Shown: positions 1 to 64,000, numbered from the stretch's first letter. The stretch is DNA of 64,000 nucleotides from Eledone cirrhosa (GCA_964016885.1 OZ024746.1:51956001-52020000), one strand, 5' to 3'. Numbers and translations are program-made. The notes: generated from the sequence alone by a model not told the origin.

Positions 1-636
1 ATACTTTGAATAGAGTAGTGTATGGTATAGAATGGTGTATATAGGTGTGTGTTGTATGGTATGGAATTCTATGTATTGGGTATGTTATACTGAATATGGA
101 GTAGTATATGGTATAGAATGGTGTATATAGGTGTGTGTTGTATGGTATGGAATTCTATGTATTGGGTATGTTATATTTTGTATCGTGTAGTGTATGGTAT
201 AGAATGGTGTATATAGGTGTGTGTTGTATGGTATGGAATTCTATGTATTGGGTATGTTATACTGAGTATGGAGTAGTGAATGGTATAGAATGGTGTATAT
301 AGGTGTGTGTTGTATGGTATGGAAATCTATGTATTGGGTATGTTATATTTTGTATGGTGTAGTGTATGGTATAGAATGGTGTATATAGGTGTGTGTTGTA
401 TGGTATGGAATTCTATGTATTGTTATGTTATACTGAGTATCGAGTAGTGTATGGTATAGAATAGTGTATATAGGTGTGTGTTGTATGGTATGGAATTCTA
501 TGTATTGGGTATGTTTTACTTAGTATGGAGTAGTGTATGGCATATAATGGTGTATATAGGTGTGTGTTGTATGGTATGGAATTCTATGTATTGGGTATGT
601 TATACTGAGTATGGAGTAGTGTATAGTATAGAATAG

Positions 637-3600
637 TGTATATAGGTGTGTGTTGTATGTTATGGAATTCTAAGTATTGGGTATGTTATACTGTGTATAG
701 AGTAGTTTATGGTATAGAATGGTGTATATAGATGTGTGTTGCATGGTATCGAATTCTATGTATTGGGTATGTTATACTTTTTATGGAGTGGAGTATGGTA
801 TAGAATGGTGTATATAGGTGTGTCTTGTATGGTAAGGAATTCTATGTATTGGGTATGTTATACTTTGAATAGAGTAGTGTATGGTATATAATGGTGTATA
901 TAGATGTGTGTTGTATGGTATGGAATTTTATGTATTGTGTATGTTATACTTAATATGGAGTAGTGTATGGTATAGCATGCTGTATATATGTGTGTGTTGT
1001 ATGGTATGGAATTATATGTATTGGGTATGTTATACTTAGTATGGAGTAGTGTATGGTATAGAATGGTGTATATAGGTGTGTGTTGTATGGTATGGAATTC
1101 TATGTATTGGGTATGTTATACTGAGTATGGAGTAGTGTATGGTATAGTATGGTGTATATAGGTGTGTGTTGTATGGTATGGAATTCTATGTATTGGTATG
1201 TTATATTTTGCATGGTGTAGTGTATGGTATAGAATGGTGTATATAGGTATGTGTTGTATGGTATGGAATTCTATGTATTGTTATGTTATACTGAGTATGG
1301 AGTAGTGTATGGTATAGAATGTTGTATATAGGTGTGTGTTGTATGGTATGGAATTCTATGTATTGGGTATGTTTTACTTAGTATGGAGTATGGTATGGCG
1401 TAGAATGGTGTATATAGGTGTGTGTTGTACGGTATCGAATTCTATGTATTGGGTATGTTATAGTTAGTATGGAGTAGTGTATGGCATAGAATGGTGAATA
1501 TAGGTATCTGTTGTATGGTATGGAATTCTATGTATTGGGTATGTTATACTTTCTATGGAGTAGTGTATGGTATAGAATGGTGTATATAGGTGTGTGTTGT
1601 ATGGTATGGAATTCTATGTATTAGGTATGTTATGCTGAGTATGGAGTAGTGTATGGTATAGAATGGTGTATATAGGTGTGTGTTGTATGGTATGGAATTC
1701 TATGAATTGGGTATGTTATATTTAGTATGGAGTAGTGTATAGTATAGAATGGTGTATATAGGTGTGTGTTGTATGTTATGGAATTCTATGTATTAGTATG
1801 TTAAAATGAGTATGGAGTAGTGTATGGTATAGAATGGTGTATATAGGTGTGTGTTGTATGGTATGGAATTCTATGAATTGGGTATGTTATATTTAGTATA
1901 GAGTAGTGTATGGTGTAGACTGGTGTATATAGGTGTGTGTTGTATGGTATGGAATTCTATGTATTGGTTATGTTATATTTAGTATGGAGTAGTGTATGGC
2001 ATAGAATGGTGTATATAGGTGTGTGTTGTATGGTATGGAATGCTATGTATTGGGTATGTTATACTTTGTATTGAGTAGTGTATGGTATAGAATGGTGTAT
2101 ATAGGTGTGTGTTGTATGGTATGGAATTCTATGTATTGGGTATGTTATACTTTGTATGGAGTAGTGTATGGTATAGAATGGTGTGTATGGGTGTGTGTTG
2201 TATGGTATGGAATTCTATGTATTAGGTATGTTATACTGAATATGGAGTAGTGTATGGTATAGAATGGTGTATATAGGTGTGTGTTGTATGGTATGGAATT
2301 CTATGAATTGGGTATGTTATATTTAGTATGGAGTAGTGTATGGTATAGAATGGTGTATATAGATGTGTGTTGTATGGTATGGAATTCTATGTATTGGGTA
2401 TGTTATACTGAGTATGGAGTAGTGTATGGTATAGAATGGTGTATATAGATGTGTGTTGTATGGTATGGAATTCTATGTATTAGTATGTTATACTGAGTAT
2501 GGAGTAGTGTATGGTATAGAATGGTGTATATAGGTGTGTGTTGTATGGTATGGAATTCTATGTATTGGGTATGTTTTACTTAGTATGGAGTAGTGTATGG
2601 CATAGAATGGTGTATATAGATGTGTGTTGTATGGTATGGAATTCTAAGTATTGGGTATGTTATACTGTGTATGGAGTAGTGTATGGCATATAATGGTGTA
2701 TATAGGTGTGTCTTGTAGGGTTAAGAATTCTATGTATTGGGTATGTTATACTTTGAATAGAGTAGTGTATGGTATAGAATGGTGTACATAGATGTGTGTT
2801 GTATGTTATGGAATTTTATGTATTGGGTATCTTATACTTAATATGGAGTAGTGTATGGTATAGAATGCTCTATATATGTGTGTGTTGTATGGTATGGAAT
2901 TATATGTATTGTGTATGTTATACTTAGTACGGAGTAGTGTATGGTATAGAATGGTGTATATAGCTGTGTGTTGTATGGTATGGAATTCTATGTATTGGGT
3001 ATGTTATACTGAGTATGGAGTAGTGTATGGTATAGAATGGTGTATATAGGTGTGTGTTGTATGGTATGGAATTCTATGTATTGTTATGTTATACTGAGTA
3101 TGGAGTAGTGTATGGTATAGAATGGTGTGTATAGGTGTGTGTTGTATGGTATGGAATTCTATGTATTGGGTATGTTATACTGAGTATGGAGTAGTGTATG
3201 GTATAGAATGGTGTATATAGGTGTGTGTTGTATGGTATGGAATTCTATGTATTAGGTATGTTATACTGAGTATGGAGTAGTGTATGGTATAGAATGGTGT
3301 ATATAGGTGTGTGTTGTATGGTATGGAATTCTATGTATAGGGTATGTTATACTTTGTATGGAGTATTGTATGGTATAGAATGGTGTATATAGGTGTGTCT
3401 TGTATGGTTAAGAATTGTATGTATTGGGTATGTTATACTTAGTATGGAGTAGTGTATGGCATAGAATGGTGTATATAGGTGTGTGTTGTATGTTATGGAA
3501 TTCTATGTATTAGTATGTTATACTGAGTATGGAGTAGTGTATGGTATAGAATGGTGTATATAGGTGTGTGTTGTATGGTATGGAATTCTATGAATTGGGT

Positions 3601-6600
3601 ATGTTATATTTAGTATAGAGTAGTGTATGGTATAGACTGGTGTATATAGGTGTGTGTTGTATGTTATGGAATTCTAAGTATTGGGTATGTTATACTGTGT
3701 ATAGAGTAGTTTATGGTATAGAATGGTGTATATAGATGTGTGTTGCATGGTATCGAATTCTATGTATTGGGTATGTTATACTTTTTATGGAGTGGAGTAT
3801 GGTATAGAATGGTGTATATAGGTGTGTCTTGTATGGTAAGGAATTCTATGTATTGGGTATGTTATACTTTGAATAGAGTAGTGTATGGTATATAATGGTG
3901 TATATAGATGTGTGTTGTATGGTATGGAATTTTATGTATTGTGTATGTTATACTTAATATGGAGTAGTGTATGGTATAGCATGCTGTATATATGTGTGTG
4001 TTGTATGGTATGGAATTATATGTATTGGGTATGTTATACTTAGTATGGAGTAGTGTATGGTATAGAATGGTGTATATAGGTGTGTGTTGTATGGTATGGA
4101 ATTCTATGTATTGGGTATGTTATACTGAGTATGGAGTAGTGTATGGTATAGTATGGTGTATATAGGTGTGTGTTGTATGGTATGGAATTCTATGTATTGG
4201 TATGTTATATTTTGCATGGTGTAGTGTATGGTATAGAATGGTGTATATAGGTATGTGTTGTATGGTATGGAATTCTATGTATTGTTATGTTATACTGAGT
4301 ATGGAGTAGTGTATGGTATAGAATGTTGTATATAGGTGTGTGTTGTATGGTATGGAATTCTATGTATTGGGTATGTTTTACTTAGTATGGAGTATGGTAT
4401 GGCGTAGAATGGTGTATATAGGTGTGTGTTGTACGGTATCGAATTCTATGTATTGGGTATGTTATAGTTAGTATGGAGTAGTGTATGGCATAGAATGGTG
4501 AATATAGGTATCTGTTGTATGGTATGGAATTCTATGTATTGGGTATGTTATACTTTCTATGGAGTAGTGTATGGTATAGAATGGTGTATATAGGTGTGTG
4601 TTGTATGGTATGGAATTCTATGTATTAGGTATGTTATACTGAGTATGGAGTAGTGTATGGTATAGAATGGTGTATATAGGTGTGTGTTGTATGGTATGGA
4701 ATTCTATGAATTGGGTATGTTATATTTAGTATGGAGTAGTGTATAGTATAGAATGGTGTATATAGGTGTGTGTTGTATGTTATGGAATTCTATGTATTAG
4801 TATGTTAAAATGAGTATGGAGTAGTGTATGGTATAGAATGGTGTATATAGGTGTGTGTTGTATGGTATGGAATTCTATGAATTGGGTATGTTATATTTAG
4901 TATAGAGTAGTGTATGGTATAGACTGGTGTATATAGGTGTGTGTTGTATGGTATGGAATTCTATGTATTGGTTATGTTATATTTAGTATGGAGTAGTGTA
5001 TGGCATAGAATGGTGTATATAGGTGTGTGTTGTATGGTATGGAATGCTATGTATTGGGTATGTTATACTTTGTATTGAGTAGTGTATGGTATAGAATGGT
5101 GTATATAGGTGTGTGTTGTATGGTATGGAATTCTATGTATTGGGTATGTTATACTTTGTATGGAGTAGTGTATGGTATAGAATGGTGTGTATGGGTGTGT
5201 GTTGTATGGTATGGAATTCTATGTATTAGGTATGTTATACTGAATATGGAGTAGTGTATGGTATAGAATGGTGTATATAGGTGTGTGTTGTATGGTATGG
5301 AATTCTATGAATTGGGTATGTTATATTTAGTATGGAGTAGTGTATGGTATAGAATGGTGTATATAGATGTGTGTTGTATGGTATGGAATTCTATGTATTG
5401 GGTATGTTATACTGAGTATGGAGTAGTGTATGGTATAGAATGGTGTATATAGATGTGTGTTGTATGGTATGGAATTCTATGTATTAGTATGTTATACTGA
5501 GTATGGAGTAGTGTATGGTATAGAATGGTGTATATAGGTGTGTGTTGTATGGTATGGAATTCTATGTATTGGGTATGTTTTACTTAGTATGGAGTAGTGT
5601 ATGGCATAGAATGGTGTATATAGATGTGTGTTGTATGGTATGGAATTCTAAGTATTGGGTATGTTATACTGTGTATGGAGTAGTGTATGGCATATAATGG
5701 TGTATATAGGTGTGTCTTGTAGGGTTAAGAATTCTATGTATTGGGTATGTTATACTTTGAATAGAGTAGTGTATGGTATAGAATGGTGTATATAGATGTG
5801 TGTTGTATGTTATGGAATTTTATGTATTGGGTATCTTATACTTAATATGGAGTAGTGTATGGTATAGAATGCTCTATATATGTGTGTGTTGTATGGTATG
5901 GAATTATATGTATTGTGTATGTTATACTTAGTACGGAGTAGTGTATGGTATAGAATGGTGTATATAGCTGTGTGTTGTATGGTATGGAATTCTATGTATT
6001 GGGTATGTTATACTGAGTATGGAGTAGTGTATGGTATAGAATGGTGTATATAGGTGTGTGTTGTATGGTATGGAATTCTATGTATTGTTATGTTATACTG
6101 AGTATGGAGTAGTGTATGGTATAGAATGGTGTGTATAGGTGTGTGTTGTATGGTATGGAATTCTATGTATTGGGTATGTTATACTGAGTATGGAGTAGTG
6201 TATGGTATAGAATGGTGTATATAGGTGTGTGTTGTATGGTATGGAATTCTATGTATTAGGTATGTTATACTGAGTATGGAGTAGTGTATGGTATAGAATG
6301 GTGTATATAGGTGTGTGTTGTATGGTATGGAATTCTATGTATAGGGTATGTTATACTTTGTATGGAGTATTGTATGGTATAGAATGGTGTATATAGGTGT
6401 GTCTTGTATGGTTAAGAATTGTATGTATTGGGTATGTTATACTTAGTATGGAGTAGTGTATGGCATAGAATGGTGTATATAGGTGTGTGTTGTATGTTAT
6501 GGAATTCTATGTATTAGTATGTTATACTGAGTATGGAGTAGTGTATGGTATAGAATGGTGTATATAGGTGTGTGTTGTATGGTATGGAATTCTATGAATT

Positions 6601-6667
6601 GGGTATGTTATATTTAGTATAGAGTAGTGTATGGTATAGACTGGTGTATATAGGTGTGTGTTGTATG
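637..6667. repeat. Tandem duplication of a 3004-bp (35-monomer) block: about 637-3640 and 3641-6667
   Basis: Identical ORFs at 2023 and 5027 (offset 3004). Rare variants AGTAGTTTAT, GGAGTGGAGT, TAGCATGCTG, TTAAAATGAG and AAGAATTGTA recur at the same offset. Only 3 differences were noticed (about 1634, 1915, 2787). Confidence 0.95.
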
Positions 6668-9600
6668 GTATGGAATTCTAAGTATTGGGTATGTTATACT
6701 GTGTATGGAGTAGTGTATGGTATAGAATGGTGTATATAGATGTGTGTTGCATGGTATGGAATTCTATGTATTGGGTATGTTATATTTTGTATGGTGTAGT
6801 GTATGGTATAGAATGGTGTATGTAGGTGTGTGTTGTAGGGTATGGAATTCTATGTATTGTTATGTTATACTGAGTATGGAGTAGTGTATGGTATAGAATG
6901 GTGTATATAGGTGTGTGTTGTATGGTATGGAATTCTATGTATTGGGTATATTTTACTTAGTATGGAGTAGTGTATGGCATAGAATGGTGTATATAGGTGT
7001 GTGTTGTATGGTATGGAATTCTTGTATTGGGTATATTATACTTTGTATGGAGTAGTGTACGGTATAGAATGGTGTATATAGGTGTGTGTTGTATGGTATG
7101 GAATTCTATGTATTGGGTATATTTTACTGAGTATGGAGTAGTGTATGGTATAGAATGGTGTATATAGGTGTGTGTTGTATGGTATGGAATTCTAAGTATT
7201 GAGTATGTTATATGTGTATGGAGTAGTGTATGGTATAGAATGGTGTATATAGATGTGTGTTGCATGGTATCGAATTCTATGTATTGGGTATGTTATACTT
7301 TGTATGGAGTAGTGTATGGTATAGAATGGTGTATATAGGTGTGCTTGTATGGTTAAGAATTCTATGTATTGGGTATGTTATACTTTGAATAGAGTAGTGT
7401 ATGGTATAGAATGGTGTATATAGATGTGTGTTGTATGTTATGGAATTTTATGTATTGGGTATGTTATACTTAATATGGAGTAGTGTATGGTATAGAATGC
7501 TCTATATATGTGTGTTGCATGGTATGGAATTATATGTATTGGGTATGTTATATTAGTACGGAGTAGTGTATGGTATAGAATGGTGTATATAGCTGTGTGT
7601 TGTATGGTATGGAATTCTATGTATTGGGTATGTTATACTGAGTATGGAGTAGTGTATGGTATAGAATGGTGTATATAGGTGTGTGTTGTATGGTATGGAA
7701 TTCTATGTATTGTTATGTTATACTGAGTATGGAGTAGTGTAAGGTATAGAATGGTGTATATAGGTGTGTGTTGTATGGTATGGAATTCTATGTATTGGGT
7801 ATGTTTTACTTAATATGGAGTAGTGTATGGCATAGAATGGTGTATATAGGTGTGTGTTGTATGGTATGGAATTCTATATATTGGGTATATTATACTTTGT
7901 ATGGAGTAGTGTATGGTATAGAATGGTGTATATAGGTGTGTGTTGTATGGTATGGAATTCTATGTATTAGGTATGTTATACTGAGTATGGAGTAGTGTAT
8001 GGTATAGAATGGTGTATATAGGTGTGTGTTGTATGGTATGAAATTCTATGTATTAGGTATGTTATACTGAGTATGGAGTAGTGTATGGTATAGAATGGTG
8101 TATATAGGTGTGTGTTGTATGGTATGGAATTCTATGTATAGGGTATGTTATACTTTGTATGGAGTAGTGTATGGTATAGAATGGTGTATATAGGTGTGTG
8201 TCGTATGGTATAGAATTCTATGTATTGGGTATGTTATACTTAGTATGGAGTAGTGTATGGCATAGACTGGTGTATATAGGTGTGTGTTGTATGGTATGGT
8301 ATTCTATGTATTGGGTATGTTATACTGTGTATGGAATAGTGTATGGTATAGAATGGTGTATATAGGTGTGTGTTGCATGGTATCGAATTCTATGTATTGG
8401 GTATGTTATACTTTGTATGGGGTAGTGTATGGTATAGAATGGTGTATATAGGTGTGTGTTGTATGGTATGGAATTCTATGTATTGGTTATGTTATACTTA
8501 GTATGGAGTAGTGTATGGCATAGAATGGTGTATATAGGTGTGTGTTGTATGGTATGGAATTCTATGTATTGGGTATGTTATACTGTGTATGGAGTAGTGT
8601 ATGGTATAGAATGGTGTATATAGCTGTGTCTTGTATGGTAAGGAATTCTATGTATTGGGTATAAGATACTTTGAATAGAGTAGTGTATGGTATAGAATGG
8701 TGTATATAGATGTGTTTTGTATGGTATGGAATTTTATGTATTGGGTATGTTATACTTAATATGGAGTAGTGTATGGTATAGAATGCTCTATATATGTTTG
8801 TGTTGTATGGTATGGAATTATATGTATTGGGTATGTTATACTTAGTATGGAGTAGTGTATGGTATAGTATGGTGTATATAGGTGTGTGTTGTATGGTATG
8901 GAATTCTATGTATTGGGTATGTTATACTGAGTATGGAGTAGTGAATGGTATAGAATGGTGTATATAGGTGTGTGTTGTATGGTATGGAAATCTATGTATT
9001 GGGTATGTTATATTTTGTATGGTGTAGTGTATGGTATAGAATGGTGTATATAGGTGTGTGTTCTATGGTATGGAATTCTATGTATTGTTATGTTATACTG
9101 AGTATGGAGTAGTGTATGGTATAGAATGGTGTATATAGGTGTGTGTTGTATGGTATGGCATTCTATGTATTGGGTATGTTTTACTTAGTAAGGAGTAGTG
9201 TATGGCATAGAATGGTGTATATAGGTGTGTGTTGTATGGTATGGAATTCTATGTATTGGGTATATTATACTTTGTATGGAGTAGTGTATGGTATAGAATG
9301 GTGTATATAGGTGTGTGTTGTATGGTATGGAATTCTATGTATTAGGTATGTTATACTGAGTAAGGAGTAGTGTATGGTATAGAATGGTGTATATAGGTGT
9401 GTGTTGTATGGTATGGAATTCTATGTATTGGGTATGTTATACTGAGTATGGAGTAGTGAATGGTATAGAATGGTGTATATAGGTGTGTGTTGTATGGTAT
9501 GGAAATCTATGTATTGGGTATGTTATATTTTGTATGGTGTAGTGTATGGTATAGAATGGTGTATATAGGTATGTGTTGTACGGTATGGAATTCTATGTAT

Positions 9601-12600
9601 TGGGTATGTTATAGTTAGTATGGAGTAGTGTATGGCATAGAATGGTGTATATAGGTGTCTGTTGTATGGTATGGAATTCTATGTATTAGTATGTTATACT
9701 GAGTATGGAGTAGTGTATGGTATAGAATGGTGTATATAGGTGTGTGTTGCATGGTATGGAATTCTATGTATTGGGTATGTTATACTGAGTATGGAGTAGT
9801 GTATAGTATAGAATGGTGTATATAGGTGTGTGTTGTATGGTATGGAATTCTAAGTATTGGGTATGTTATACTGTGTATGGAGTAGTGTATGGTATAGAAT
9901 GGTGTATATAGATGTGTGTTGCATGGTATCGAATTCTATGTATTGGGTATGTTATACTTTGTATGGAGTAGTGTAAGGTATAGAATGGTGTATATAGGTG
10001 TGTCTTGTATGGTTAAGAATTCTATGTATTGGATATGTTATACTTTGAATAGAGTAGTGTATGCTATTGAATGGTGTATATAGATGTGTGTTGTATGTTA
10101 TGGAATTTTATGTATTGGGAATGTTATACTTAATATGGAGTAGTGTATGGTATAGAATGCTCTATATATGTGTGTGTTGTATGGTATGGAATTATATGTA
10201 TTGGGTATGTTATACTTAGTACGGAGTAGTGTATGGTATAGAATGGTGTATATAGCTGTGTGTTGTATGGTATGGAATTCTATGTATTGGGTATGTTATA
10301 CTGAGTATGGAGTAGTGTATGGTATAGAATGGTGTGTATAGGTGTGTGTTGTATGGTATGGAATTCTATGTATTGTTATGTTATACTGAGTATGGAGTAG
10401 TGTATGGTATAGAATGGTGTATATAGGTGTGTGTTGTATGGTATGGAATTCTATGTATTAGGTATGTTATACTGAGTATTGAGTAGTGTATGGTATAGAA
10501 TGGTGTATATAGGTGTGTGTTGTATGGTATGGAATTCTATGTATTAGGTATGTTATACTGAGTATGGAGTAGTGTATGGTATAGAATGGTGTATATAGGT
10601 GTGTGTTGTATGGTATGGAATTCTATGTATAGGGTATGTTATACTTTGTATGGAGTAGTGTATGGTATAGAATGGTGTATATAGGTGTGTGTTGTATGGT
10701 ATAGAATTCTATGTATTGGGTATGTTATACTTAGTATGGAGTAGTGTATGGCATAGACTGGTGTATATAGGTGTGTGTTGTATGGTATGGTATTCTATGT
10801 ATTGGGTATGTTATACTGTGTATGGAGTAGTGTATGGTATAGAATGGTGTATATTGGTGTGTGTTGCATGGTATCGAATTCTATGTATTGGGTATGTTAT
10901 ACTTTGTATGGAATAGTGTATGGTATAGAATGGTGTATATAGGTGTGTGTTGTATGGTATGGAATTCTATGTATTGGGTATGTTATACTGTGTATGGAGT
11001 AGTGTATGGTATAGAATGGTGTATATAGGTGTGTCTTGTATGGTAAGGAATTCTATGTATTGTGTATAAGATACTTTGAATAGAGTAGTGTATGGTATAG
11101 AATGGTGTATATAGGTGTGTGTTGTATGGTATGGAATTCTATGTATTGGGTATGTTATACTGAGTATGGAGTAGTGTATGGTATAGAATGGTGTATATAT
11201 GTGTGTGTTGTATGGTATGGAATTCTATGTATTGGGTATGTTATATTTTGTATGGTGTACTGTATGGTATAGAATGGTGTATATAGGTGTGTGTTGTATG
11301 GTATGGAATTCTATGTATTGGGTATGTTATACTGAGTATGGAGTAGTGAATGGTATAGAATGGTGTATATAGGTGTGTGTTGTATGGTATGGAAATCTAT
11401 GTATTGGGTATGTTATATTTTGTATGGTGTAGTGTATGGTATAGAATGGTGTATATAGGTGTGTGTTGTATGGTATGGAATTCTATGTATTGTTATGTTA
11501 TACTGAGTATCGAGTAGTGTATGGTATAGAATAGTGTATATAGGTGTGTGTTGTATGGTATGGAATTCTATGTATTGGGTATGTTTTACTTAGTATGGAG
11601 TAGTGTATGGCATATAATGGTGTATATAGGTGTGTGTTGTATGGTATGGAATTCTATGTATTGGGTATGTTATACTGAGTATGGAGTAGTGTATAGTATA
11701 GAATAGTGTATATAGGTGTGTGTTGTATGTTATGGAATTCTAAGTATTGGGTATGTTATACTGTGTATAGAGTAGTGTATGGTATAGAATGGTGTATATA
11801 GATGTGTGTTGCATGGTATCGAATTCTATGTATTGGGTATGTTATACTTTTTATGGAGTAGAGTATGGTTTAGAATGGTGTATATAGGTGTGTCTTGTAT
11901 GGTAAGGAATTCTATGTATTGGGTATGTTATACTTTGAATAGAGTAGTGTATGGTATAGAATGGTGTATATAGATGTGTGTTGTATGGTATGGAATTTTA
12001 TGTATTGTGTATGTTATACTTAATATGGAGTAGTGTATGGTATATCATGCTGTATATATGTGTGTGTTGTATGGTATGGAATTCTATGTATTGGGTATGT
12101 TATACTTAGTATGGAGTAGTGTGTGGTATAGAATGGTGTATATAGGTGTGTGTTTTATGGTATGGAATTCTATGTATTGGGTATGTTATACTGAGTATGG
12201 AGTAGTGTATGGTATAGTATGGTGTATATAGGTGTGTGTTGTATGGTATGGAATTCTATGTATTGGTATGTTATATTTTGCATGGTGTAGTGTATGGTAT
12301 AGAATGGTGTATATAGGTATGTGTTGTATGGTATGGAATTCTATGTATTGTTATGTTATACTGAGTATGGAGTAGTGTATGGTATAGAATGGTGTATATA
12401 GGTGTGTGTTGTATGGTATGGAATTCTATGTATTAGGTATGTTATACTGAGTATGGAGTAGTGTATGGTATAGAATGGTGTATATAGGTGTGTGTTGTAT
12501 GGTATGGAATTCTATGAATTGGGTATGTTATATTTAGTATGGAGTAGTGTATGGTATAGAATGGTGTATATAGGTGTGTGTTGTATGTTATGGAATTCTA

Positions 12601-31429: not shown

Positions 31430-31471
31430 CTGAGTATGGAGTAGTGTATGGTATAGAATGGTGTATATAGG

Positions 31472-40479: not shown

Positions 40480-40840
40480 GTATATAGGTGTGTGTTGTAG
40501 GGTATGGAATACTATGTACTGGGTATGTTATACTTTGTATGGAGTAGTGTATGGCATAGATTGGTGTATATAGGTGTGTGTTGTATGGTATGGAATTCTA
40601 TGAGTTGGGTATGTTAAATTTAGTATGGAATAGTGTATGACATAGACTGGTGTATATAGGTGTGTGTTGTAGAGTATGGAATACTATGTACTGGGTATGT
40701 TATACTTTGTATGGAGTAGTGTATGGCATAGATTGGTGTATATAGGTGTGTGTTGTATGGTCTGGAATTCTATGAGTTGGGTATGTTAAATTTAGTATGG
40801 AATAGTGTATGACATAGACTGGTGTATATAGGTGTGTGTT
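40480..40840. repeat. Local tandem duplication of a 172-bp dimer
   Basis: GAATACTATGTACTGGG...GAGTTGGGTATGTTAAATTTAGTATGGAATAGTGTATGACATAGAC occurs twice in a row (ACTATGTACT at 40511 and 40683). Confidence 0.9.
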
Positions 40841-46100: not shown

Positions 46101-46240
46101 TATTGGGTATGTTATACTTTGTATGGAGTAGTGTATGGTATAGAATGGTGTATATAGATGTGTGTTGTATGGTATAGAATTCTATGTATTAGGTATGTTA
46201 TACTGAGTATGGAGTAGTGTATGGTATAGAATGGTGTATA
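43130..46240. repeat. Older imperfect duplication, about 1.8-1.9-kb offset (43.13-44.34 kb matches 44.94-46.24 kb)
   Basis: ATGCTATAGAATGCTG at about 43213 and 45018 (offset 1805). GGATTAGTGTATCG and TTACGTATG are shared. Near-identical ORFs at 44013 and 45904 (offset 1891, one monomer more). Confidence 0.75.
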
Positions 46241-51005: not shown

Positions 51006-51009
51006 TGGG

Positions 51010-54000
51010 GTAGTGTATGGTATAGAATGGTGTATATAGGTGTGTGTTGTATGGTATAGAATTCTATGTATTGGGTATGTTATACTTAGTATGGAGTAGT
51101 GTATGGCATAGACTGGTGTATATAGGTGTGTGTTGTATGGTATGGTATTCTATGTATTGGGTATGTTATACTGTGTATGGAGTAGTGTATGGTATAGAAT
51201 GGTGTATATTGGTGTGTGTTGCATGGTATCGAATTCTATGTATTGGGTATGTTATACTTTGTATGGAGTAGTGTATGGTATAGAATGGTGTATATAGGTG
51301 TGTGTTATATGGTATGGAATTCTATGTATTGGTTATGTTATACTTAGTATGGAGTAGTGTATGACATAGAATGGTGTATATAGGTGTGTGTTGTATGGTA
51401 TGGAATTCTATGTATTGGGTATGTTATACTGTGTATGGAGTAGTGTATGGTATAGAATGGTGTATATAGGTGTGTCTTGTATGGTAAGGAATTCTATGTA
51501 TTGTGTATAAGATACTTTGAATAGAGTAGTGTATGGTATAGAATGGTGTATATAGGTGTGTGTTGTATGGTATGGAATTCTATGTATTGGGTATGTTATA
51601 CTGAGTATGGAGTAGTGTATGGTATAGAATGGTGTATATATGTGTGTGTTGTATGGTATGGAATTCTATGTATTGGGTATGTTATATTTTGTATGGTGTA
51701 CTGTATGGTATAGAATGGTGTATATAGGTGTGTGTTGTATGGTATGGAATTCTATGTATTGGGTATGTTATACTGAGTATGGAGTAGTGAATGGTATAGA
51801 ATGGTGTATATAGGTGTGTGTTGTATGGTATGGAAATCTATGTATTGGGTATGTTATATTTTGTATGGTGTAGTGTATGGTATAGAATGGTGTATATAGG
51901 TGTGTGTTGTATGGTATGGAATTCTATGTATTGTTATGTTATACTGAGTATCGAGTAGTGTATGGTATAGAATAGTGTATATAGGTGTGTGTTGTATGGT
52001 ATGGAATTCTATGTATTGGGTATGTTTTACTTAGTATGGAGTAGTGTATGGCATATAATGGTGTATATAGGTGTGTGTTGTATGGTATGGAATTCTATGT
52101 ATTGTGTATGTTATACTGAGTATGGAGTAGTGTATAGTATAGAATAGTGTATATAGGTGTGTGTTGTATGTTATGGAATTCTAAGTATTGGGTATGTTAT
52201 ACTGTGTATAGAGTAGTGTATGGTATAGAATGGTGTATATAGATGTGTGTTGCATGGTATCGAATTCTATGTATTGGGTATGTTATACTTTTTATGGAGT
52301 AGAGTATGGTATAGAATGGTGTATATAGGTGTGTCTTGTATGGTAAGGAATTCTATGTATTGGGTATGTTATACTTTGAATAGAGTAGTGTATGGTATAG
52401 AATGGTGTATATAGATGTGTGTTGTATGGTATGGAATTTTATGTATTGTGTATGTTATACTTAATATGGAGTAGTGTATGGTATAGCATGCTGTATATAT
52501 GTGTGTGTTGTATGGTATGGAATTCTATGTATTGGGTATGTTATACTTAGTATGGAGTAGTGTATGGTATAGAATGGTGTATATAGGTGTGTGTTGTATG
52601 GTATGGAATTCTATGTATTGGGTATGTTATACTGAGTATGGAGTAGTGTATGGTATAGTATGGTGTATATAGGTGTGTGTTGTATGGTATGGAATTCTAT
52701 GTATTGGTATGTTATATTTTGCATGGTGTAGTGTATGGTATAGAATGGTGTATATAGGTATGTGTTGTATGGTATGGAATTCTATGTATTGTTATGTTAT
52801 ACTGAGTATGGAGTAGTGTATGGTATAGAATGTTGTATATAGGTGTGTGTTGTATGGTATGGAATTCTATGTATTGGGTATGTTTTACTTAGTATGGAGT
52901 AGGGTATGGCGTAGAATGGTGTATATAGGTGTGTGTTGTACGGTATCGAATACTATGTATTGGGTATGTTATAGTTAGTATGGAGTAGTGTATGGCATAG
53001 AATGGTGAATATAGGTATCTGTTGTATGGTATGGAATTCTATGTATTGGGTATGTTATACTTTCTATGGAGTAGTGTATGGTATAGAATGGTGTATATAG
53101 GTGTGTGTTGTATGGTATGGAATTCTATGTATTAGGTATGTTATACTGAGTATGGAGTAGTGTATGGTATAGAATGGTGTATATAGGTGTGTGTTGTATG
53201 GTATGGAATTCTATGAATTGGGTATGTTATATTTAGTATGGAGTAGTGTATGGTATAGAATGGTGTATATAGGTGTGTGTTGTATGTTATGGAATTCTAT
53301 GTATTAGTATGTTATAATGAGTATGGAGTAGTGTATGGTATAGAATGGTGTATATAGGTGTGTGTTGTATGGTATGGAATTCTATGAATTGGGTATGTTA
53401 TATTTAGTATAGAGTAGTGTATGGTATCGACTGGTGTATATAGGTGTGTGTTGTATGGTATGGAATTCTATGTATTGGTTATGTTATATTTAGTATGGAG
53501 TAGTGTATGGCATAGAATGGTGTATATAGGTGTGTGTTGTATGGTATGGAATGCTATGTATTGGGTATGTTATACTTTGTATTGAGTAGTGTATGGTATA
53601 GAATGGTGTATATAGGTGTGTGTTGTATGGTATGGAATTCTATGTATTGGATATGTTTTACTTAGTATGGAGTAGTGTATGGCATAGAATGGTGTATATA
53701 GGTGTGTGTTGTACGGTATGGAATTCTATGTATTGGGTATGTTATACTTAGTATGGAGTAGTGTATGGCATAGAATGGTGTATATAGGTGTGTGTTGTAT
53801 GGTATGGAATTCTATGTATTGGGTATGTTATACTTTGTATGGAGTAGTGTATGGTATAGAATGGTGTATATGGGTGTGTGTTGTATGGTATGGAATTCTA
53901 TGTATTAGGTATGTTATACTGAATATGGAGTAGTGTATGGTATAGAATGGTGTATATAGGCGTGTGTTGTATGGTATGGAATTCTATGAATTGGGTATGT

Positions 54001-55030
54001 TATATTTAGTATGGAGTAGTGTATGGTATAGAATGGTGTATATACGTGTGTGTTGTATGTTATGGAATTCTATGTATTAGTATGTTATACTGAGTATGGA
54101 GTAGTGTATGGTATAGAATGGTGTATATAGGTGTGTGTTGTATGGTATGGAATTCTAAGTATTGGGTATGTTATACTGTGTATGGAGTAGTGTATGGTAT
54201 AGAATGGTGTATATAGATGTGTGTTGCATGGTATCGAATTCTATATATTGGTTATGTTATACTTTGTATGGAGTAGTGTATGGTATAGAATGGTGTATAT
54301 AGGTGTGTCTTGTAGGGTTAAGAATTCTATGTATTGGGTATGTTATACTTTGAATAGAGTAGTGTATGGTATAGAATGGTGTATATAGATGTGTGTTGTA
54401 TGTTATGGAATTTTATGTATTGGGTATGTTATACTTAATATGGAGTAGTGTATGGTATAGAATGCTCTATATATGTGTGTGTTGTATGGTATGGAATTAT
54501 ATGTATTGTGTATGTTATACTTAGTACGGAGTAGTGTATGGTATAGAATGGTGTATATAGCTGTGTGTTGTATGGTATGGAATTCTATGTATTGGGTATG
54601 TTATACTGAGTATGGAGTAGTGTATGGTATAGAATGGTGTATATAGGTGTGTGTTGTATGGTATGGAATTCTATGTATTGTTATGTTATACTGAGTATGG
54701 AGTAGTGTATGGTATAGAATGGTGTGTATAGGTGTGTGTTGTATGGTATGGAATTCTATGTATTGGGTATGTTATACTGAGTATAGAGTAGTGTATGGTA
54801 TAGAATGGTGTATATAGGTGTGTGTTGTATGGTATGGAATTCTATGTATAGGGTATGTTATACTTTGTATGGAGTATTGTATGGTATAGAATGGTGTATA
54901 TAGGTGTGTCTTGTATGGTTAAGAATTGTATGTATTGGGTATGTTATACTTAGTATGGTGTAGTGTATGGCATAGACTGGTGTATATAGGTGTGTGTTGT
55001 ATGGTATGGTATTCTATGTATTGGGTATGT
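51010..55030. repeat. Diverged copy of about 10650-14250 (offset about 40.4-40.8 kb, with whole-monomer indels)
   Basis: Identical ORFs at 10689 and 51044. Shared rare variants TGTGTATAAGATAC, GGTGTACTGT, TTGGATATGTTTT, TATAGGCGTG and TCTATATATTGGTT occur in the same order. Confidence 0.85.
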
Positions 55031-55289
55031 TATACTTTGTATGGAGTAGTGTATGGTATAGAATGGTGTATATAGGTGTGTGTTGTATGGTATGGAATTC
55101 TATGTATTGGTTATGTTATACTTAGTATGGAGTAGTGTATGACATAGAATGGTGTATATAGGTGTGTGTTGTATGGTATGGAATTCTATGTATTGGGTAT
55201 GTTATACTGTGTATGGAGTAGTGTATGGTATAGAATGGTGTATATAGGTGTGTCTTGTATGGTAAGGAATTCTATGTATTGGGTATAAG

Positions 55290-58200
55290 ATACTTTGAAT
55301 AGAGTAGTGTATGGTATAGAATGGTGTATATAGGTGTGTGTTGTATGGTATGGAATTCTATGTATTGGGTATGTTATACTGAATATGGAGTAGTATATGG
55401 TATAGAATGGTGTATATAGGTGTGTGTTGTATGGTATGGAATTCTATGTATTGGGTATGTTATATTTTGTATCGTGTAGTGTATGGTATAGAATGGTGTA
55501 TATAGGTGTGTGTTGTATGGTATGGAATTCTATGTATTGGGTATGTTATACTGAGTATGGAGTAGTGAATGGTATAGAATGGTGTATATAGGTGTGTGTT
55601 GTATGGTATGGAAATCTATGTATTGGGTATGTTATATTTTGTATGGTGTAGTGTATGGTATAGAATGGTGTATATAGGTGTGTGTTGTATGGTATGGAAT
55701 TCTATGTATTGTTATGTTATACTGAGTATCGAGTAGTGTATGGTATAGAATAGTGTATATAGGTGTGTGTTGTATGGTATGGAATTCTATGTATTGGGTA
55801 TGTTTTACTTAGTATGGAGTAGTGTATGGCATATAATGGTGTATATAGGTGTGTGTTGTATGGTATGGAATTCTATGTATTGGGTATGTTATACTGAGTA
55901 TGGAGTAGTGTATAGTATAGAATAGTGTATATAGGTGTGTGTTGTATGTTATGGAATTCTAAGTATTGGGTATGTTATACTGTGTATAGAGTAGTTTATG
56001 GTATAGAATGGTGTATATAGATGTGTGTTGCATGGTATCGAATTCTATGTATTGGGTATGTTATACTTTTTATGGAGTGGAGTATGGTATAGAATGGTGT
56101 ATATAGGTGTGTCTTGTATGGTAAGGAATTCTATGTATTGGGTATGTTATACTTTGAATAGAGTAGTGTATGGTATATAATGGTGTATATAGATGTGTGT
56201 TGTATGGTATGGAATTTTATGTATTGTGTATGTTATACTTAATATGGAGTAGTGTATGGTATAGCATGCTGTATATATGTGTGTGTTGTATGGTATGGAA
56301 TTATATGTATTGGGTATGTTATACTTAGTATGGAGTAGTGTATGGTATAGAATGGTGTATATAGGTGTGTGTTGTATGGTATGGAATTCTATGTATTGGG
56401 TATGTTATACTGAGTATGGAGTAGTGTATGGTATAGTATGGTGTATATAGGTGTGTGTTGTATGGTATGGAATTCTATGTATTGGTATGTTATATTTTGC
56501 ATGGTGTAGTGTATGGTATAGAATGGTGTATATAGGTATGTGTTGTATGGTATGGAATTCTATGTATTGTTATGTTATACTGAGTATGGAGTAGTGTATG
56601 GTATAGAATGTTGTATATAGGTGTGTGTTGTATGGTATGGAATTCTATGTATTGGGTATGTTTTACTTAGTATGGAGTATGGTATGGCGTAGAATGGTGT
56701 ATATAGGTGTGTGTTGTACGGTATCGAATTCTATGTATTGGGTATGTTATAGTTAGTATGGAGTAGTGTATGGCATAGAATGGTGAATATAGGTATCTGT
56801 TGTATGGTATGGAATTCTATGTATTGGGTATGTTATACTTTCTATGGAGTAGTGTATGGTATAGAATGGTGTATATAGGTGTGTGTTGTATGGTATGGAA
56901 TTCTATGTATTAGGTATGTTATGCTGAGTATGGAGTAGTGTATGGTATAGAATGGTGTATATAGGTGTGTGTTGTATGGTATGGAATTCTATGAATTGGG
57001 TATGTTATATTTAGTATGGAGTAGTGTATAGTATAGAATGGTGTATATAGGTGTGTGTTGTATGTTATGGAATTCTATGTATTAGTATGTTAAAATGAGT
57101 ATGGAGTAGTGTATGGTATAGAATGGTGTATATAGGTGTGTGTTGTATGGTATGGAATTCTATGAATTGGGTATGTTATATTTAGTATAGAGTAGTGTAT
57201 GGTATAGACTGGTGTATATAGGTGTGTGTTGTATGGTATGGAATTCTATGTATTGGTTATGTTATATTTAGTATGGAGTAGTGTATGGCATAGAATGGTG
57301 TATATAGGTGTGTGTTGTATGGTATGGAATGCTATGTATTGGGTATGTTATACTTTGTATTGAGTAGTGTATGGTATAGAATGGTGTATATAGGTGTGTG
57401 TTGTATGGTATGGAATTCTATGTATTGGGTATGTTATACTTTGTATGGAGTAGTGTATGGTATAGAATGGTGTGTATGGGTGTGTGTTGTATGGTATGGA
57501 ATTCTATGTATTAGGTATGTTATACTGAATATGGAGTAGTGTATGGTATAGAATGGTGTATATAGGTGTGTGTTGTATGGTATGGAATTCTATGAATTGG
57601 GTATGTTATATTTAGTATGGAGTAGTGTATGGTATAGAATGGTGTATATAGATGTGTGTTGTATGGTATGGAATTCTATGTATTGGGTATGTTATACTGA
57701 GTATGGAGTAGTGTATGGTATAGAATGGTGTATATAGATGTGTGTTGTATGGTATGGAATTCTATGTATTAGTATGTTATACTGAGTATGGAGTAGTGTA
57801 TGGTATAGAATGGTGTATATAGGTGTGTGTTGTATGGTATGGAATTCTATGTATTGGGTATGTTTTACTTAGTATGGAGTAGTGTATGGCATAGAATGGT
57901 GTATATAGATGTGTGTTGTATGGTATGGAATTCTAAGTATTGGGTATGTTATACTGTGTATGGAGTAGTGTATGGCATATAATGGTGTATATAGGTGTGT
58001 CTTGTAGGGTTAAGAATTCTATGTATTGGGTATGTTATACTTTGAATAGAGTAGTGTATGGTATAGAATGGTGTATATAGATGTGTGTTGTATGTTATGG
58101 AATTTTATGTATTGGGTATCTTATACTTAATATGGAGTAGTGTATGGTATAGAATGCTCTATATATGTGTGTGTTGTATGGTATGGAATTATATGTATTG

Positions 58201-61200
58201 TGTATGTTATACTTAGTACGGAGTAGTGTATGGTATAGAATGGTGTATATAGCTGTGTGTTGTATGGTATGGAATTCTATGTATTGGGTATGTTATACTG
58301 AGTATGGAGTAGTGTATGGTATAGAATGGTGTATATAGGTGTGTGTTGTATGGTATGGAATTCTATGTATTGTTATGTTATACTGAGTATGGAGTAGTGT
58401 ATGGTATAGAATGGTGTGTATAGGTGTGTGTTGTATGGTATGGAATTCTATGTATTGGGTATGTTATACTGAGTATGGAGTAGTGTATGGTATAGAATGG
58501 TGTATATAGGTGTGTGTTGTATGGTATGGAATTCTATGTATTAGGTATGTTATACTGAGTATGGAGTAGTGTATGGTATAGAATGGTGTATATAGGTGTG
58601 TGTTGTATGGTATGGAATTCTATGTATAGGGTATGTTATACTTTGTATGGAGTATTGTATGGTATAGAATGGTGTATATAGGTGTGTCTTGTATGGTTAA
58701 GAATTGTATGTATTGGGTATGTTATACTTAGTATGGAGTAGTGTATGGCATAGAATGGTGTATATAGGTGTGTGTTGTATGTTATGGAATTCTATGTATT
58801 AGTATGTTATACTGAGTATGGAGTAGTGTATGGTATAGAATGGTGTATATAGGTGTGTGTTGTATGGTATGGAATTCTATGAATTGGGTATGTTATATTT
58901 AGTATAGAGTAGTGTATGGTATAGACTGGTGTATATAGGTGTGTGTTGTATGTTATGGAATTCTAAGTATTGGGTATGTTATACTGTGTATAGAGTAGTT
59001 TATGGTATAGAATGGTGTATATAGATGTGTGTTGCATGGTATCGAATTCTATGTATTGGGTATGTTATACTTTTTATGGAGTGGAGTATGGTATAGAATG
59101 GTGTATATAGGTGTGTCTTGTATGGTAAGGAATTCTATGTATTGGGTATGTTATACTTTGAATAGAGTAGTGTATGGTATATAATGGTGTATATAGATGT
59201 GTGTTGTATGGTATGGAATTTTATGTATTGTGTATGTTATACTTAATATGGAGTAGTGTATGGTATAGCATGCTGTATATATGTGTGTGTTGTATGGTAT
59301 GGAATTATATGTATTGGGTATGTTATACTTAGTATGGAGTAGTGTATGGTATAGTATGGTGTATATAGGTGTGTGTTGTATGGTATGGAATTCTATGTAT
59401 TGGTATGTTATATTTTGCATGGTGTAGTGTATGGTATAGAATGGTGTATATAGGTATGTGTTGTATGGTATGGAATTCTATGTATTGTTATGTTATACTG
59501 AGTATGGAGTAGTGTATGGTATAGAATGTTGTATATAGGTGTGTGTTGTATGGTATGGAATTCTATGTATTGGGTATGTTTTACTTAGTATGGAGTATGG
59601 TATGGCGTAGAATGGTGTATATAGGTGTGTGTTGTACGGTATCGAATTCTATGTATTGGGTATGTTATAGTTAGTATGGAGTAGTGTATGGCATAGAATG
59701 GTGAATATAGGTATCTGTTGTATGGTATGGAATTCTATGTATTGGGTATGTTATACTTTCTATGGAGTAGTGTATGGTATAGAATGGTGTATATAGGTGT
59801 GTGTTGTATGGTATGGAATTCTATGTATTAGGTATGTTATACTGAGTATGGAGTAGTGTATGGTATAGAATGGTGTATATAGGTGTGTGTTGTATGGTAT
59901 GGAATTCTATGAATTGGGTATGTTATATTTAGTATGGAGTAGTGTATAGTATAGAATGGTGTATATAGGTGTGTGTTGTATGTTATGGAATTCTATGTAT
60001 TAGTATGTTAAAATGAGTATGGAGTAGTGTATGGTATAGAATGGTGTATATAGGTGTGTGTTGTATGGTATGGAATTCTATGAATTGGGTATGTTATATT
60101 TAGTATAGAGTAGTGTATGGTATAGACTGGTGTATATAGGTGTGTGTTGTATGGTATGGAATTCTATGTATTGGTTATGTTATATTTAGTATGGAGTAGT
60201 GTATGGCATAGAATGGTGTATATAGGTGTGTGTTGTATGGTATGGAATGCTATGTATTGGGTATGTTATACTTTGTATTGAGTAGTGTATGGTATAGAAT
60301 GGTGTATATAGGTGTGTGTTGTATGGTATGGAATTCTATGTATTGGGTATGTTATACTTTGTATGGAGTAGTGTATGGTATAGAATGGTGTGTATGGGTG
60401 TGTGTTGTATGGTATGGAATTCTATGTATTAGGTATGTTATACTGAATATGGAGTAGTGTATGGTATAGAATGGTGTATATAGGTGTGTGTTGTATGGTA
60501 TGGAATTCTATGAATTGGGTATGTTATATTTAGTATGGAGTAGTGTATGGTATAGAATGGTGTATATAGATGTGTGTTGTATGGTATGGAATTCTATGTA
60601 TTGGGTATGTTATACTGAGTATGGAGTAGTGTATGGTATAGAATGGTGTATATAGATGTGTGTTGTATGGTATGGAATTCTATGTATTAGTATGTTATAC
60701 TGAGTATGGAGTAGTGTATGGTATAGAATGGTGTATATAGGTGTGTGTTGTATGGTATGGAATTCTATGTATTGGGTATGTTTTACTTAGTATGGAGTAG
60801 TGTATGGCATAGAATGGTGTATATAGATGTGTGTTGTATGGTATGGAATTCTAAGTATTGGGTATGTTATACTGTGTATGGAGTAGTGTATGGCATATAA
60901 TGGTGTATATAGGTGTGTCTTGTAGGGTTAAGAATTCTATGTATTGGGTATGTTATACTTTGAATAGAGTAGTGTATGGTATAGAATGGTGTATATAGAT
61001 GTGTGTTGTATGTTATGGAATTTTATGTATTGGGTATCTTATACTTAATATGGAGTAGTGTATGGTATAGAATGCTCTATATATGTGTGTGTTGTATGGT
61101 ATGGAATTATATGTATTGTGTATGTTATACTTAGTACGGAGTAGTGTATGGTATAGAATGGTGTATATAGCTGTGTGTTGTATGGTATGGAATTCTATGT

Positions 61201-64000
61201 ATTGGGTATGTTATACTGAGTATGGAGTAGTGTATGGTATAGAATGGTGTATATAGGTGTGTGTTGTATGGTATGGAATTCTATGTATTGTTATGTTATA
61301 CTGAGTATGGAGTAGTGTATGGTATAGAATGGTGTGTATAGGTGTGTGTTGTATGGTATGGAATTCTATGTATTGGGTATGTTATACTGAGTATGGAGTA
61401 GTGTATGGTATAGAATGGTGTATATAGGTGTGTGTTGTATGGTATGGAATTCTATGTATTAGGTATGTTATACTGAGTATGGAGTAGTGTATGGTATAGA
61501 ATGGTGTATATAGGTGTGTGTTGTATGGTATGGAATTCTATGTATAGGGTATGTTATACTTTGTATGGAGTATTGTATGGTATAGAATGGTGTATATAGG
61601 TGTGTCTTGTATGGTTAAGAATTGTATGTATTGGGTATGTTATACTTAGTATGGAGTAGTGTATGGCATAGAATGGTGTATATAGGTGTGTGTTGTATGT
61701 TATGGAATTCTATGTATTAGTATGTTATACTGAGTATGGAGTAGTGTATGGTATAGAATGGTGTATATAGGTGTGTGTTGTATGGTATGGAATTCTATGA
61801 ATTGGGTATGTTATATTTAGTATAGAGTAGTGTATGGTATAGACTGGTGTATATAGGTGTGTGTTGTATGGTATGGAATTCTAAGTATTGGGTATGTTAT
61901 ACTGTGTATGGAGTAGTGTATGGTATAGAATGGTGTATATAGATGTGTGTTGCATGGTATGGAATTCTATGTATTGGGTATGTTATATTTTGTATGGTGT
62001 AGTGTATGGTATAGAATGGTGTATGTAGGTGTGTGTTGTAGGGTATGGAATTCTATCTATTGTTATGTTATACTGAGTATGGAGTAGTGTATGGTATAGA
62101 ATGGTGTATATAGGTGTGTGTTGTATGGTATGGAATTCTATGTATTGGGTATATTTTACTTAGTATGGAGTAGTGTATGGCATAGAATGGTGTATATAGG
62201 TGTGTGTTGTATGGTATGGAATTCTTGTATTGGGTATATTATACTTTGTATGGAGTAGTGTACGGTATAGAATGGTGTATATAGGTGTGTGTTGTATGGT
62301 ATGGAATTCTATGTATTGGGTATATTTTACTGAGTATGGAGTAGTGTATGGTATAGAATGGTGTATATAGGTGTGTGTTGTATGGTATGGAATTCTAAGT
62401 ATTGAGTATGTTATATGTGTATGGAGTAGTGTATGGTATAGAATGGTGTATATAGATGTGTGTTGCATGGTATCGAATTCTATGTATTGGGTATGTTATA
62501 CTTTGTATGGAGTAGTGTATGGTATAGAATGGTGTATATTGGTGTGCTTGTATGGTTAAGAATTCTATGTATTGGGTATGTTATACTTTGAATAGAGTAG
62601 TGTATGGTATAGAATGGTGTATATAGATGTGTGTTGTATGTTATGGAATTTTATGTATTGGGTATGTTATACTTAATATGGAGTAGTGTATGGTATAGAA
62701 TGCTCTATATATGTGTGTGTTGCATGGTATGGAATTATATGTATTGGGTATGTTATATTAGTACGGAGTAGTGTATGGTATAGAATGGTGTATATAGCTG
62801 TGTGTTGTATGGTATGGAATTCTATGTATTGGGTATGTTATACTGAGTATGGAGTAGTGTATGGTATAGAATGGTGTATATAGGTGTGTGTTGTATGGTA
62901 TGGAATTCTATGTATTGTTATGTTATACTGAGTATGGAGTAGTGTAAGGTATAGAATGGTGTATATAGGTGTGTGTTGTATGGTATGGAATTCTATGTAT
63001 TGGGTATGTTTTACTTAATATGGAGTAGTGTATGGCATAGAATGGTGTATATAGGTGTGTGTTGTATGGTATGGAATTCTATATATTGGGTATATTATAC
63101 TTTGTATGGAGTAGTGTATGGTATAGAATGGTGTATATAGGTGTGTGTTGTATGGTATGGAATTCTATGTATTAGGTATGTTATACTGAGTATGGAGTAG
63201 TGTATGGTATAGAATGGTGTATATAGGTGTGTGTTGTATGGTATGAAATTCTATGTATTAGGTATGTTATACTGAGTATGGAGTAGTGTATGGTATAGAA
63301 TGGTGTATATAGGTGTGTGTTGTATGGTATGGAATTCTATGTATAGGGTATGTTATACTTTGTATGGAGTAGTGTATGGTATAGAATGGTGTATATAGGT
63401 GTGTGTCGTATGGTATAGAATTCTATGTATTGGGTATGTTATACTTAGTATGGAGTAGTGTATGGCATAGACTGGTGTATATAGGTGTGTGTTGTATGGT
63501 ATGGTATTCTATGTATTGGGTATGTTATACTGTGTATGGAATAGTGTATGGTATAGAATGGTGTATATAGGTGTGTGTTGCATGGTATCGAATTCTATGT
63601 ATTGGGTATGTTATACTTTGTATGGGGTAGTGTATGGTATAGAATGGTGTATATAGGTGTGTGTTGTATGGTATGGAATTCTATGTATTGGTTATGTTAT
63701 ACTTAGTATGGAGTAGTGTATGGCATAGAATGGTGTATATAGGTGTGTGTTGTATGGTATGGAATTCTATGTATTGGGTATGTTATACTGTGTATGGAGT
63801 AGTGTATGGTATAGAATGGTGTATATAGCTGTGTCTTGTATGGTAAGGAATTCTATGTATTGGGTATAAGATACTTTGAATAGAGTAGTGTATGGTATAG
63901 AATGGTGTATATAGATGTGTTTTGTATGGTATGGAATTTTATGTATTGGGTATGTTATACTTAATATGGAGTAGTGTATGGTATAGAATGCTCTATATAT
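55290..64000. repeat. Near-identical copy of window positions 1-8795 (offset 55289, then 55203, then 55205)
   Basis: ATACTTTGAATAGAG...CTGAATATGGAGTAGTATATGG...TATCGTGTAG begins at both 1 and 55290. Identical ORF pairs are 2023/57312, 5027/60230 and 6957/62160. The window end matches 8786-8795. Confidence 0.95.
55926..61870. repeat. Second instance of the 35-monomer tandem duplication; its second unit lacks one monomer (offset 3004, then 2918)
   Basis: Identical ORFs at 57312 and 60230 (offset 2918 = 3004 - 86). The monomer loss maps near 59330-59355 relative to 4040-4155. Confidence 0.92.

What the first reader, a model, noticed from the sequence alone, without database searches (positions are those of the whole stretch)
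1..64000. Possible ~55.2-kb (~640-monomer) macro-repeat superimposed on an 86-bp satellite
Seen: positions 1-8795 recur at 55290-64000, and the match runs to both window edges. The differences I noticed are one missing monomer (about 59340), a 2-bp GT indel (about 7510 vs 62715) and a few SNPs (about 1915, 2787, 62056, 62540). Inference: either the array is built from tandem ~55-kb units or this is a single large recent duplication. A period of hundreds of monomers is much longer than classical alpha-satellite HORs, which typically span a few to a few dozen monomers.
Basis: partly seen in the sequence, partly recalled or inferred. Interest (0 to 1): 0.75.

Follow-up and report, generated by a model that had tools for sequence, protein, structure and literature searches.

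The report
Two-copy block duplication inside 86-bp satellite
The 55-kb echo is real, but it is two near-identical neighbouring copies of one block in a 507-kb run of an 86-letter repeat, likely made by a single copying event of the kind satellite DNA keeps making, not a giant fixed repeating unit.

Summary
Observation confirmed exactly: 1-8795 matches 55290-64000 with 4 substitutions, one 86-bp and one 2-bp indel. The match runs from -16,204 to 46,251 (copy A) against 46,470 to 99,046 (copy B) and stops, with no third copy on either side. The offset drifts from 62.7 to 52.8 kb, so 55.2 kb is a local offset, not a period. The copies differ by 32 private point mutations (0.06%) and 9 whole-monomer gaps, including nested duplications that formed later. 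The 506.6-kb, gap-free, single-locus array holds three more two-copy duplications of 17-45 kb and many of 2-6 kb. An older, eroded four-copy ~20-kb layer also exists. Junctions keep monomer register with only chance-level homology. The likely mechanism is out-of-register break-induced replication. Similar structures are published for human and Arabidopsis satellites. The scan noted a 31-kb analogue elsewhere in this mollusc genome (e1-9909488). Reads could not be tested, but mis-assembly is unlikely. Ordinary; low interest.

The parts
1..64000 (+). 86-bp satellite, G/T-rich + strand. Part of one 506.6-kb array (window coordinates -74,035 to ~432,567; G000:C6:51,881,965-52,388,567) of about 5,890 monomers, 4.5% from consensus, one orientation, no N
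   Evidence: a 34-bp monomer word has 1,044 genome matches and all 1,044 lie in this array
1..46251 (+). In-window part of copy A of the large tandem duplication (whole copy -16,204 to 46,251, 62.5 kb, 727 monomers)
46252..46469 (+). A/B junction patch, ~220 bp, in monomer register, collinear with neither flank. 197 bp of it match exactly at 19,251, 26,888, 30,414 and their B equivalents
46470..64000 (+). In-window part of copy B (whole copy 46,470 to 99,046, 52.6 kb, 612 monomers)
1..8795 (+).
55290..64000 (+). Its partner in copy B; lacks one monomer at ~59,331
1..2481 (+). End of a 5,667-bp (66-monomer) tandem duplication present in A only (-8,884 to 2,481)
636..6667 (+). 3,004-bp (35-monomer) tandem duplication that is also in B (55,925-61,870), so it predates the large event
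24369..31429 (+). 3,526-bp (41-monomer) tandem duplication, A only, 0 differences. Both sub-copies carry an A-specific mutation (26,344/29,870), so it postdates the large event
31470..39397 (+). 3,950-bp (46-monomer) tandem duplication, A only, 2 differences; A-specific mutation shared at 33,996/37,946
4154..13764 (+). Fourth member of an older, eroded ~20-kb layer (shared landmarks at -54.7, -33.5, -13.3 and +6.6 kb; 4.9-6.2 differences/kb)

Best explanation
The 55-kb echo is a two-copy, head-to-tail duplication of a ~50-kb block (about 580 monomers) in an 86-bp satellite array, likely made in one step when a broken replication fork re-annealed out of register on the sister chromatid and re-copied the block. 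Shown: two copies only; register kept; no gap and no long homology at the junction; each copy later gained its own point mutations and its own 0.5-6-kb whole-monomer duplications and deletions, which is why the offset drifts. Shown: the same process left layers of other ages in the array, namely an eroded ~20-kb layer (5-6 differences/kb), A/B (0.6-0.8), E/F 17-19 kb (1.0), C/D 41-45 kb (0.2-0.4), G/H 17.2 kb (0.06) and 2-5-kb duplications at 0. Inferred: break-induced replication as the route, the ~220-bp junction patch as a short template switch, and no function of the 55-kb spacing. Inferred age: 3x10^4 to 1.5x10^5 generations if the mutation rate is 2x10^-9 to 1x10^-8 per site per generation (assumed, not measured).
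For: Extent and copy number. Offsets 62,674, 60,956, 55,289, 55,119, 60,443, 56,917, 52,967 and 52,795. All 34 differing sites (32 independent) are private derived alleles, 20 in A and 12 in B, and older paralogues carry the ancestral base. Three of them are shared by nested sub-copies of one unit only, which orders the events: large duplication, then mutation, then nested duplication. Thirteen selected clean junctions overlap by 7-232 bp (median 28) against a null median of 20 for random in-register monomers. 5,842 of 5,890 monomers are 81 or 84-87 bp long. Whole-unit and 'complex' mosaic tandem duplications are attributed to BIR in Arabidopsis, and the out-of-register BIR model is reviewed in PMC12321929.
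Against: Sequence alone cannot separate BIR from unequal crossover. No reads were examined. The Arabidopsis events observed directly are 1-31 units, about 20-fold smaller. The junction patch could be a relic left by a later deletion at the other copy's edge, and 65% of random 197-bp windows here have two or more exact copies. The neighbouring 42/45-bp satellite shows only 2-12-kb duplications in the 410 kb examined, so 40-60-kb events are not universal even next door.
Confidence: 0.72

Rival explanations
1. Same two-copy duplication, but made by unequal crossover between homologous chromosomes, so A and B started as two alleles. Their differences would then predate the event, which could be very recent.
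For: The pattern of private SNPs and copy-specific nested duplications is also what two haplotypes would show. A and B carry overlapping but different nested duplications (3,526 bp in A, 5,325 bp in B).
Against: Junction homology is only at chance level for 92%-identical monomers. Three of four large junctions carry non-collinear patches that a simple crossover does not make. G/H and C/D are nearly identical, as expected for sister templates.
Confidence: 0.14
2. Assembly artefact: both haplotypes of one locus were placed in tandem (false duplication).
For: Two copies at 0.06% with structural differences is the classic signature. No read test was possible, and only one run (X1, contigs, share 0.22) held part of the stretch.
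Against: No N in the array, whereas a 200-N join exists 121 kb outside it. The longest alternative exact match across the junction patch is 197 bp, too short for a read overlap. No second contig holds the satellite word (1,044 of 1,044). Four separate large duplications of different ages would each need the same error.
Confidence: 0.07
3. A true multi-copy ~55-kb higher-order repeat, with further identical copies collapsed by the assembler.
For: Between-copy identity (99.94%) far exceeds between-monomer identity (92%). An older four-copy ~20-kb layer shows that multi-copy macro-units do arise here.
Against: No third copy is assembled. The lag is not fixed (594-730 monomers). The copies have already diverged by 9 gaps, so the unit is not being homogenised. 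Distinguishing sites occur about every 1.7 kb.
Confidence: 0.07

Closest known systems
Macro-repeats and large tandem duplications in human alpha-satellite arrays (cen12 two macro-repeats; cenX duplications of hundreds of kb; 10.1101/2021.07.12.452052, passages read)
   Same: Two large near-identical blocks inside one satellite array, with zones of younger local duplications nested in them.
   Different: Here the base layer is a monomeric 86-bp satellite with no short HOR, at one locus of a mollusc chromosome. There are no CENP-A data, and the blocks are 50-60 kb.
Tandem and complex tandem duplications in Arabidopsis CEN178 arrays (10.1101/2025.06.02.657473; abstract, passages and section 5 read)
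   Same: Only whole units are added or removed, hybrid monomers form at breakpoints, mosaic patches occur at some junctions, and BIR is proposed.
   Different: Events there are 1-31 units; here they reach ~580. About 70% of point changes there are assigned to gene conversion, whereas the A/B differences fit independent point mutation (median allele count 31.5; expected 30 for de novo, 377 for conversion).
Alpha-satellite HORs and superHORs (PMC13477032 and PMC8336445, passages read; 58-59-mer orangutan HORs seen in the search listing only)
   Same: Blocks of monomers far more alike between copies than monomers are within a copy.
   Different: No fixed unit length, no recurring monomer classes, and two copies rather than many (the superHOR definition asks for at least three consecutive).

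Membership tests
Higher-order repeat (alpha-satellite type) / superHOR | A block of fixed monomer number repeated many times (superHOR: at least three in a row) | tested here: not met
   Two copies, 727 and 612 monomers, lag 594-730
Higher-order repeat (alpha-satellite type) / superHOR | Identity between units far above identity between monomers | tested here: met
   0.06% versus 8.0% divergence
Higher-order repeat (alpha-satellite type) / superHOR | Distinct monomer classes in a recurring order | tested here: not met
   Mean monomer distance is flat (6.9-7.4 differences) at lags 1-40; the best lag in the array reaches only 5.7% identical monomers
Large in-register tandem duplication (macro-repeat) in a satellite array | Head-to-tail adjacent copies | tested here: met
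   A ends at 46,251, B starts at 46,470
Large in-register tandem duplication (macro-repeat) in a satellite array | Monomer register kept at breakpoints | tested here: met
   Junction monomers are 86 bp; 5,842 of 5,890 monomers are 81 or 84-87 bp
Complex tandem duplication by template switching | Junction mosaic copied from nearby units | tested here: inconclusive
   Patches at 3 of 4 large junctions, but exact matches of that size are common (41-65%) and a later edge deletion is not excluded
Haplotype false duplication | Gap or kilobase-scale overlap at the join | tested here: not met
   No N in the array; at most 197 bp of alternative exact match
Haplotype false duplication | Half read depth over both copies | not testable with these tools
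   No long-read run was offered
Pan-centromeric satellite | Present on most chromosomes | tested here: not met
   All 1,044 exact matches of one 34-bp word lie in this array; diverged relatives elsewhere are not excluded
Pan-centromeric satellite | CENP-A occupancy | not testable with these tools
   The array lies at 51.9-52.4 Mb of a 102.6-Mb scaffold, which is suggestive only

The most novel reading that the evidence does not exclude
This array grows mainly by giant jumps. A single burst first made four ~20-kb (~235-245-monomer) copies at once (star-like tree, no shared derived sites), and later 17-60-kb template-switch duplications doubled whole domains, with point mutation rather than gene conversion separating the copies. 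That would make it a chromosome-specific, possibly centromeric mollusc satellite with a mutational regime unlike Arabidopsis centromeres, and a place to watch a real macro-HOR being born and eroded.
Probability: 0.15. Interest if true: 0.5.

Novelty: new member of a known kind. Interest (0 to 1): 0.22.

Why it matters
As found, it is a clean worked example rather than a discovery. The array is fully assembled and its monomers are 8% apart, so the order of duplications can be read directly, and it shows that single steps of 17-60 kb occur in a mollusc satellite. It gives a rough rate ratio of about one whole-monomer rearrangement per 3-4 point mutations (9 gaps versus 32 substitutions). Had the fixed 640-monomer unit been real and multi-copy, it would have been about ten times the longest primate HORs seen in the search listing, but that reading failed.

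Tried and rejected
Third copy upstream or downstream: none. Short HOR: none at lags 1-40. Gene conversion as the source of A/B differences: rejected, 0 of 10,000 frequency-weighted draws reached so low a median (two rows have uncertain monomer phase). Long homology at junctions: not seen in 13 clean junctions that I selected. Exact matches of junction patches as proof of templated insertion: not accepted, background 41-65%. Star-like origin of the 20-kb layer: only 29 monomers align four ways. After dropping one chimeric monomer row and merging one indel there are about 19 private events and 0 shared pairs, so an internal branch up to about 60% of a terminal branch is not excluded. Four distant control pairs gave no alignment (the control line crashed). 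Rfam on 1-3000: 0 matches. Place look-up of earlier notes: 0. Literature searches showed no paper on this satellite or on cephalopod satellite arrays; they are word searches of open-access text and cannot prove absence. Supplements of the two bioRxiv papers (macro-repeat sizes, Figs S14, S18) were not seen.

Full report
Observation. The window is one 86-bp satellite from end to end (745.5 copies), with a strong G/T bias on the + strand. Alignment of 1-8795 with 55290-64000 gives 4 substitutions in 8,709 bases, one missing monomer at ~59,331 and a 2-bp indel at 7508/62,712, exactly as reported.

Setting. The window is G000:C6:51,956,001-52,020,000 in a 3.0-Gb assembly; C6 is 102.6 Mb. The genome encodes molluscan haemocyanin (39 matches). 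The microsatellite-rich flanks and a SINE-like stretch recall octopods (recalled, not tested). I fetched the whole array: it spans -74,035 to ~432,567 in window coordinates (506.6 kb), with no N, no interruption over 120 bp and no inverted copies. It has about 5,890 monomers, 4.5% from consensus and 8.0% from each other. A 34-bp word has 1,044 matches in the genome and 1,044 in this array, so it is single-locus in the assembly as far as that word shows. Reverse-transcriptase ORFs lie in both flanks (3 of 3 scanned), and a second, 42/45-bp satellite begins about 21 kb after the array.

What the echo is. The collinear match extends to -16,204...46,251 (A) against 46,470...99,046 (B), then ends. 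A has 727 monomers, B has 612, 577 match, and there are 9 gaps. The offset moves through 62,674, 60,956, 55,289, 55,119, 60,443, 56,917, 52,967 and 52,795 bp. No third copy exists: upstream sequence matches A only at 5.8 differences/kb, and the sequence after B shares one old 40-monomer block with B (tile scan). There is no short HOR.

History of the copies. In 58,771 aligned bases there are 34 differing sites, 32 of them independent, with 20 derived in A and 12 in B. For 30 of 34 rows, paralogues outside A/B carry the ancestral base; the other 4 have inside paralogues only. Three derived alleles are shared by both halves of a nested duplication in one copy and absent from the other copy, so the order is large duplication, then mutation, then nested duplication. 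Sequencing error cannot give this pattern, though two haplotypes could. The array-wide counts of the derived alleles (median 31.5) fit new point mutations (expected 30) and not conversion from common variants (expected 377). Transitions to transversions are 11:23, and G>T is the commonest change.

Not alone. The array has three more large two-copy duplications: C/D (104.7-146.0 kb against 146.3-184.6 kb), E/F (270.7-287.7 against 288.0-307.0 kb) and G/H (17,220 bp, 1 difference). One search lists 17 simple tandem runs: G/H and 16 of 2.4-5.7 kb, three of which are copies carried along by a large event. Sixty percent of monomers lie in a near-identical run of 30 or more monomers. An older layer repeats a 6-12-kb core four times at 19.9-21.1-kb spacing, with all six pairs at 4.9-6.2 differences/kb. 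The four-way columns show private changes only, but just 29 monomers align. A/B copied the last two of these units. In the 410 kb of the neighbouring satellite examined (of an estimated 600+ kb), duplications are only 2-12 kb.

Junctions and mechanism. Thirteen clean junctions that I selected overlap by 7-232 bp, median 28, against a null median of 20 (5-95%: 3-64) for random in-register monomers. Exchange therefore used ordinary 92% monomer similarity, in register. Three of four large junctions carry a 220-310-bp in-register patch that is collinear with neither flank. This resembles the complex tandem duplications of Arabidopsis CEN178, for which BIR with template switching is proposed (10.1101/2025.06.02.657473; abstract, passages and section 5). 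Exact matches of that size are common here, however, so the patch origin stays open. I commit to out-of-register BIR on the sister chromatid (model in PMC12321929, passages) at about 0.7. Unequal crossover between homologues is the main rival.

Artefact. There is no gap and no long overlap at the junction, and no second contig holds the satellite word. Distinguishing sites occur about every 1.7 kb, below usual HiFi read length (read length recalled). Replicated Arabidopsis assemblies found centromeric arrays accurate, with the large errors primarily from scaffolding. No long reads were available, so depth remains untested; I put false duplication at 0.07.

Comparison and verdict. It works like the two-copy macro-repeat of human cen12 and the duplications of hundreds of kb in cenX (10.1101/2021.07.12.452052, passages). 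It is not a HOR or superHOR, since the fixed-unit and three-copy criteria fail (PMC13477032 and PMC8336445, passages). Six word searches showed no description of this satellite. Verdict: real, ordinary, a new member of a known kind; interest 0.22.

Noticed in passing
window coordinates -63,000 to 13,800 (G000:C6 ~51.893-51.970 Mb): Older four-copy ~20-kb (~235-245-monomer) layer with equal pairwise divergence and no shared derived sites in 29 four-way monomers; possibly one burst.
   Followed up: partly
L029-L037, window coordinates 104,700-184,600: Second large tandem duplication (41-45 kb, about 6 substitutions), containing a three-copy 5,493-bp unit and a ~306-bp junction patch.
   Followed up: partly
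L074-L077, window coordinates 362,909-397,355: 17,220-bp tandem duplication with one difference and a clean 7-bp junction overlap; the youngest large event.
   Followed up: partly
L078-L080 to beyond L120 (C6:52.41 to at least 53.0 Mb): Second satellite of 42/45-bp units with a variable GTT run. 2,739 genome matches of one word, all on the forward strand, 1,630 of them in 52.41-52.82 Mb. Only 2-12-kb duplications were seen.
   Followed up: partly
L010, window coordinates -108,061 to -98,890: Tandem duplication (4,903-bp offset, 2 differences) of a reverse-transcriptase element with a 1,141-aa open frame in both copies.
   Followed up: partly
window coordinates 187,000-264,000 and 430,524: A 120-bp monomer variant (34 bp longer) occurs 26 times and marks a separate, less duplicated domain of the array.
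   Followed up: no
L024, window coordinates 93,500-95,700: Three small whole-monomer rearrangements cluster within 2 kb of copy B: a re-copied 3-monomer patch, a deletion and a 515-bp duplication.
   Followed up: partly
window 24,369-27,903 and L022 77,365-82,725: A and B independently duplicated overlapping stretches after the large event, both with zero differences; a possible local hotspot.
   Followed up: no
whole array: Extreme strand asymmetry (C is 2.9% of the + strand, GC skew 0.83), shared in direction with the neighbouring satellite; G>T is the commonest recent change.
   Followed up: no
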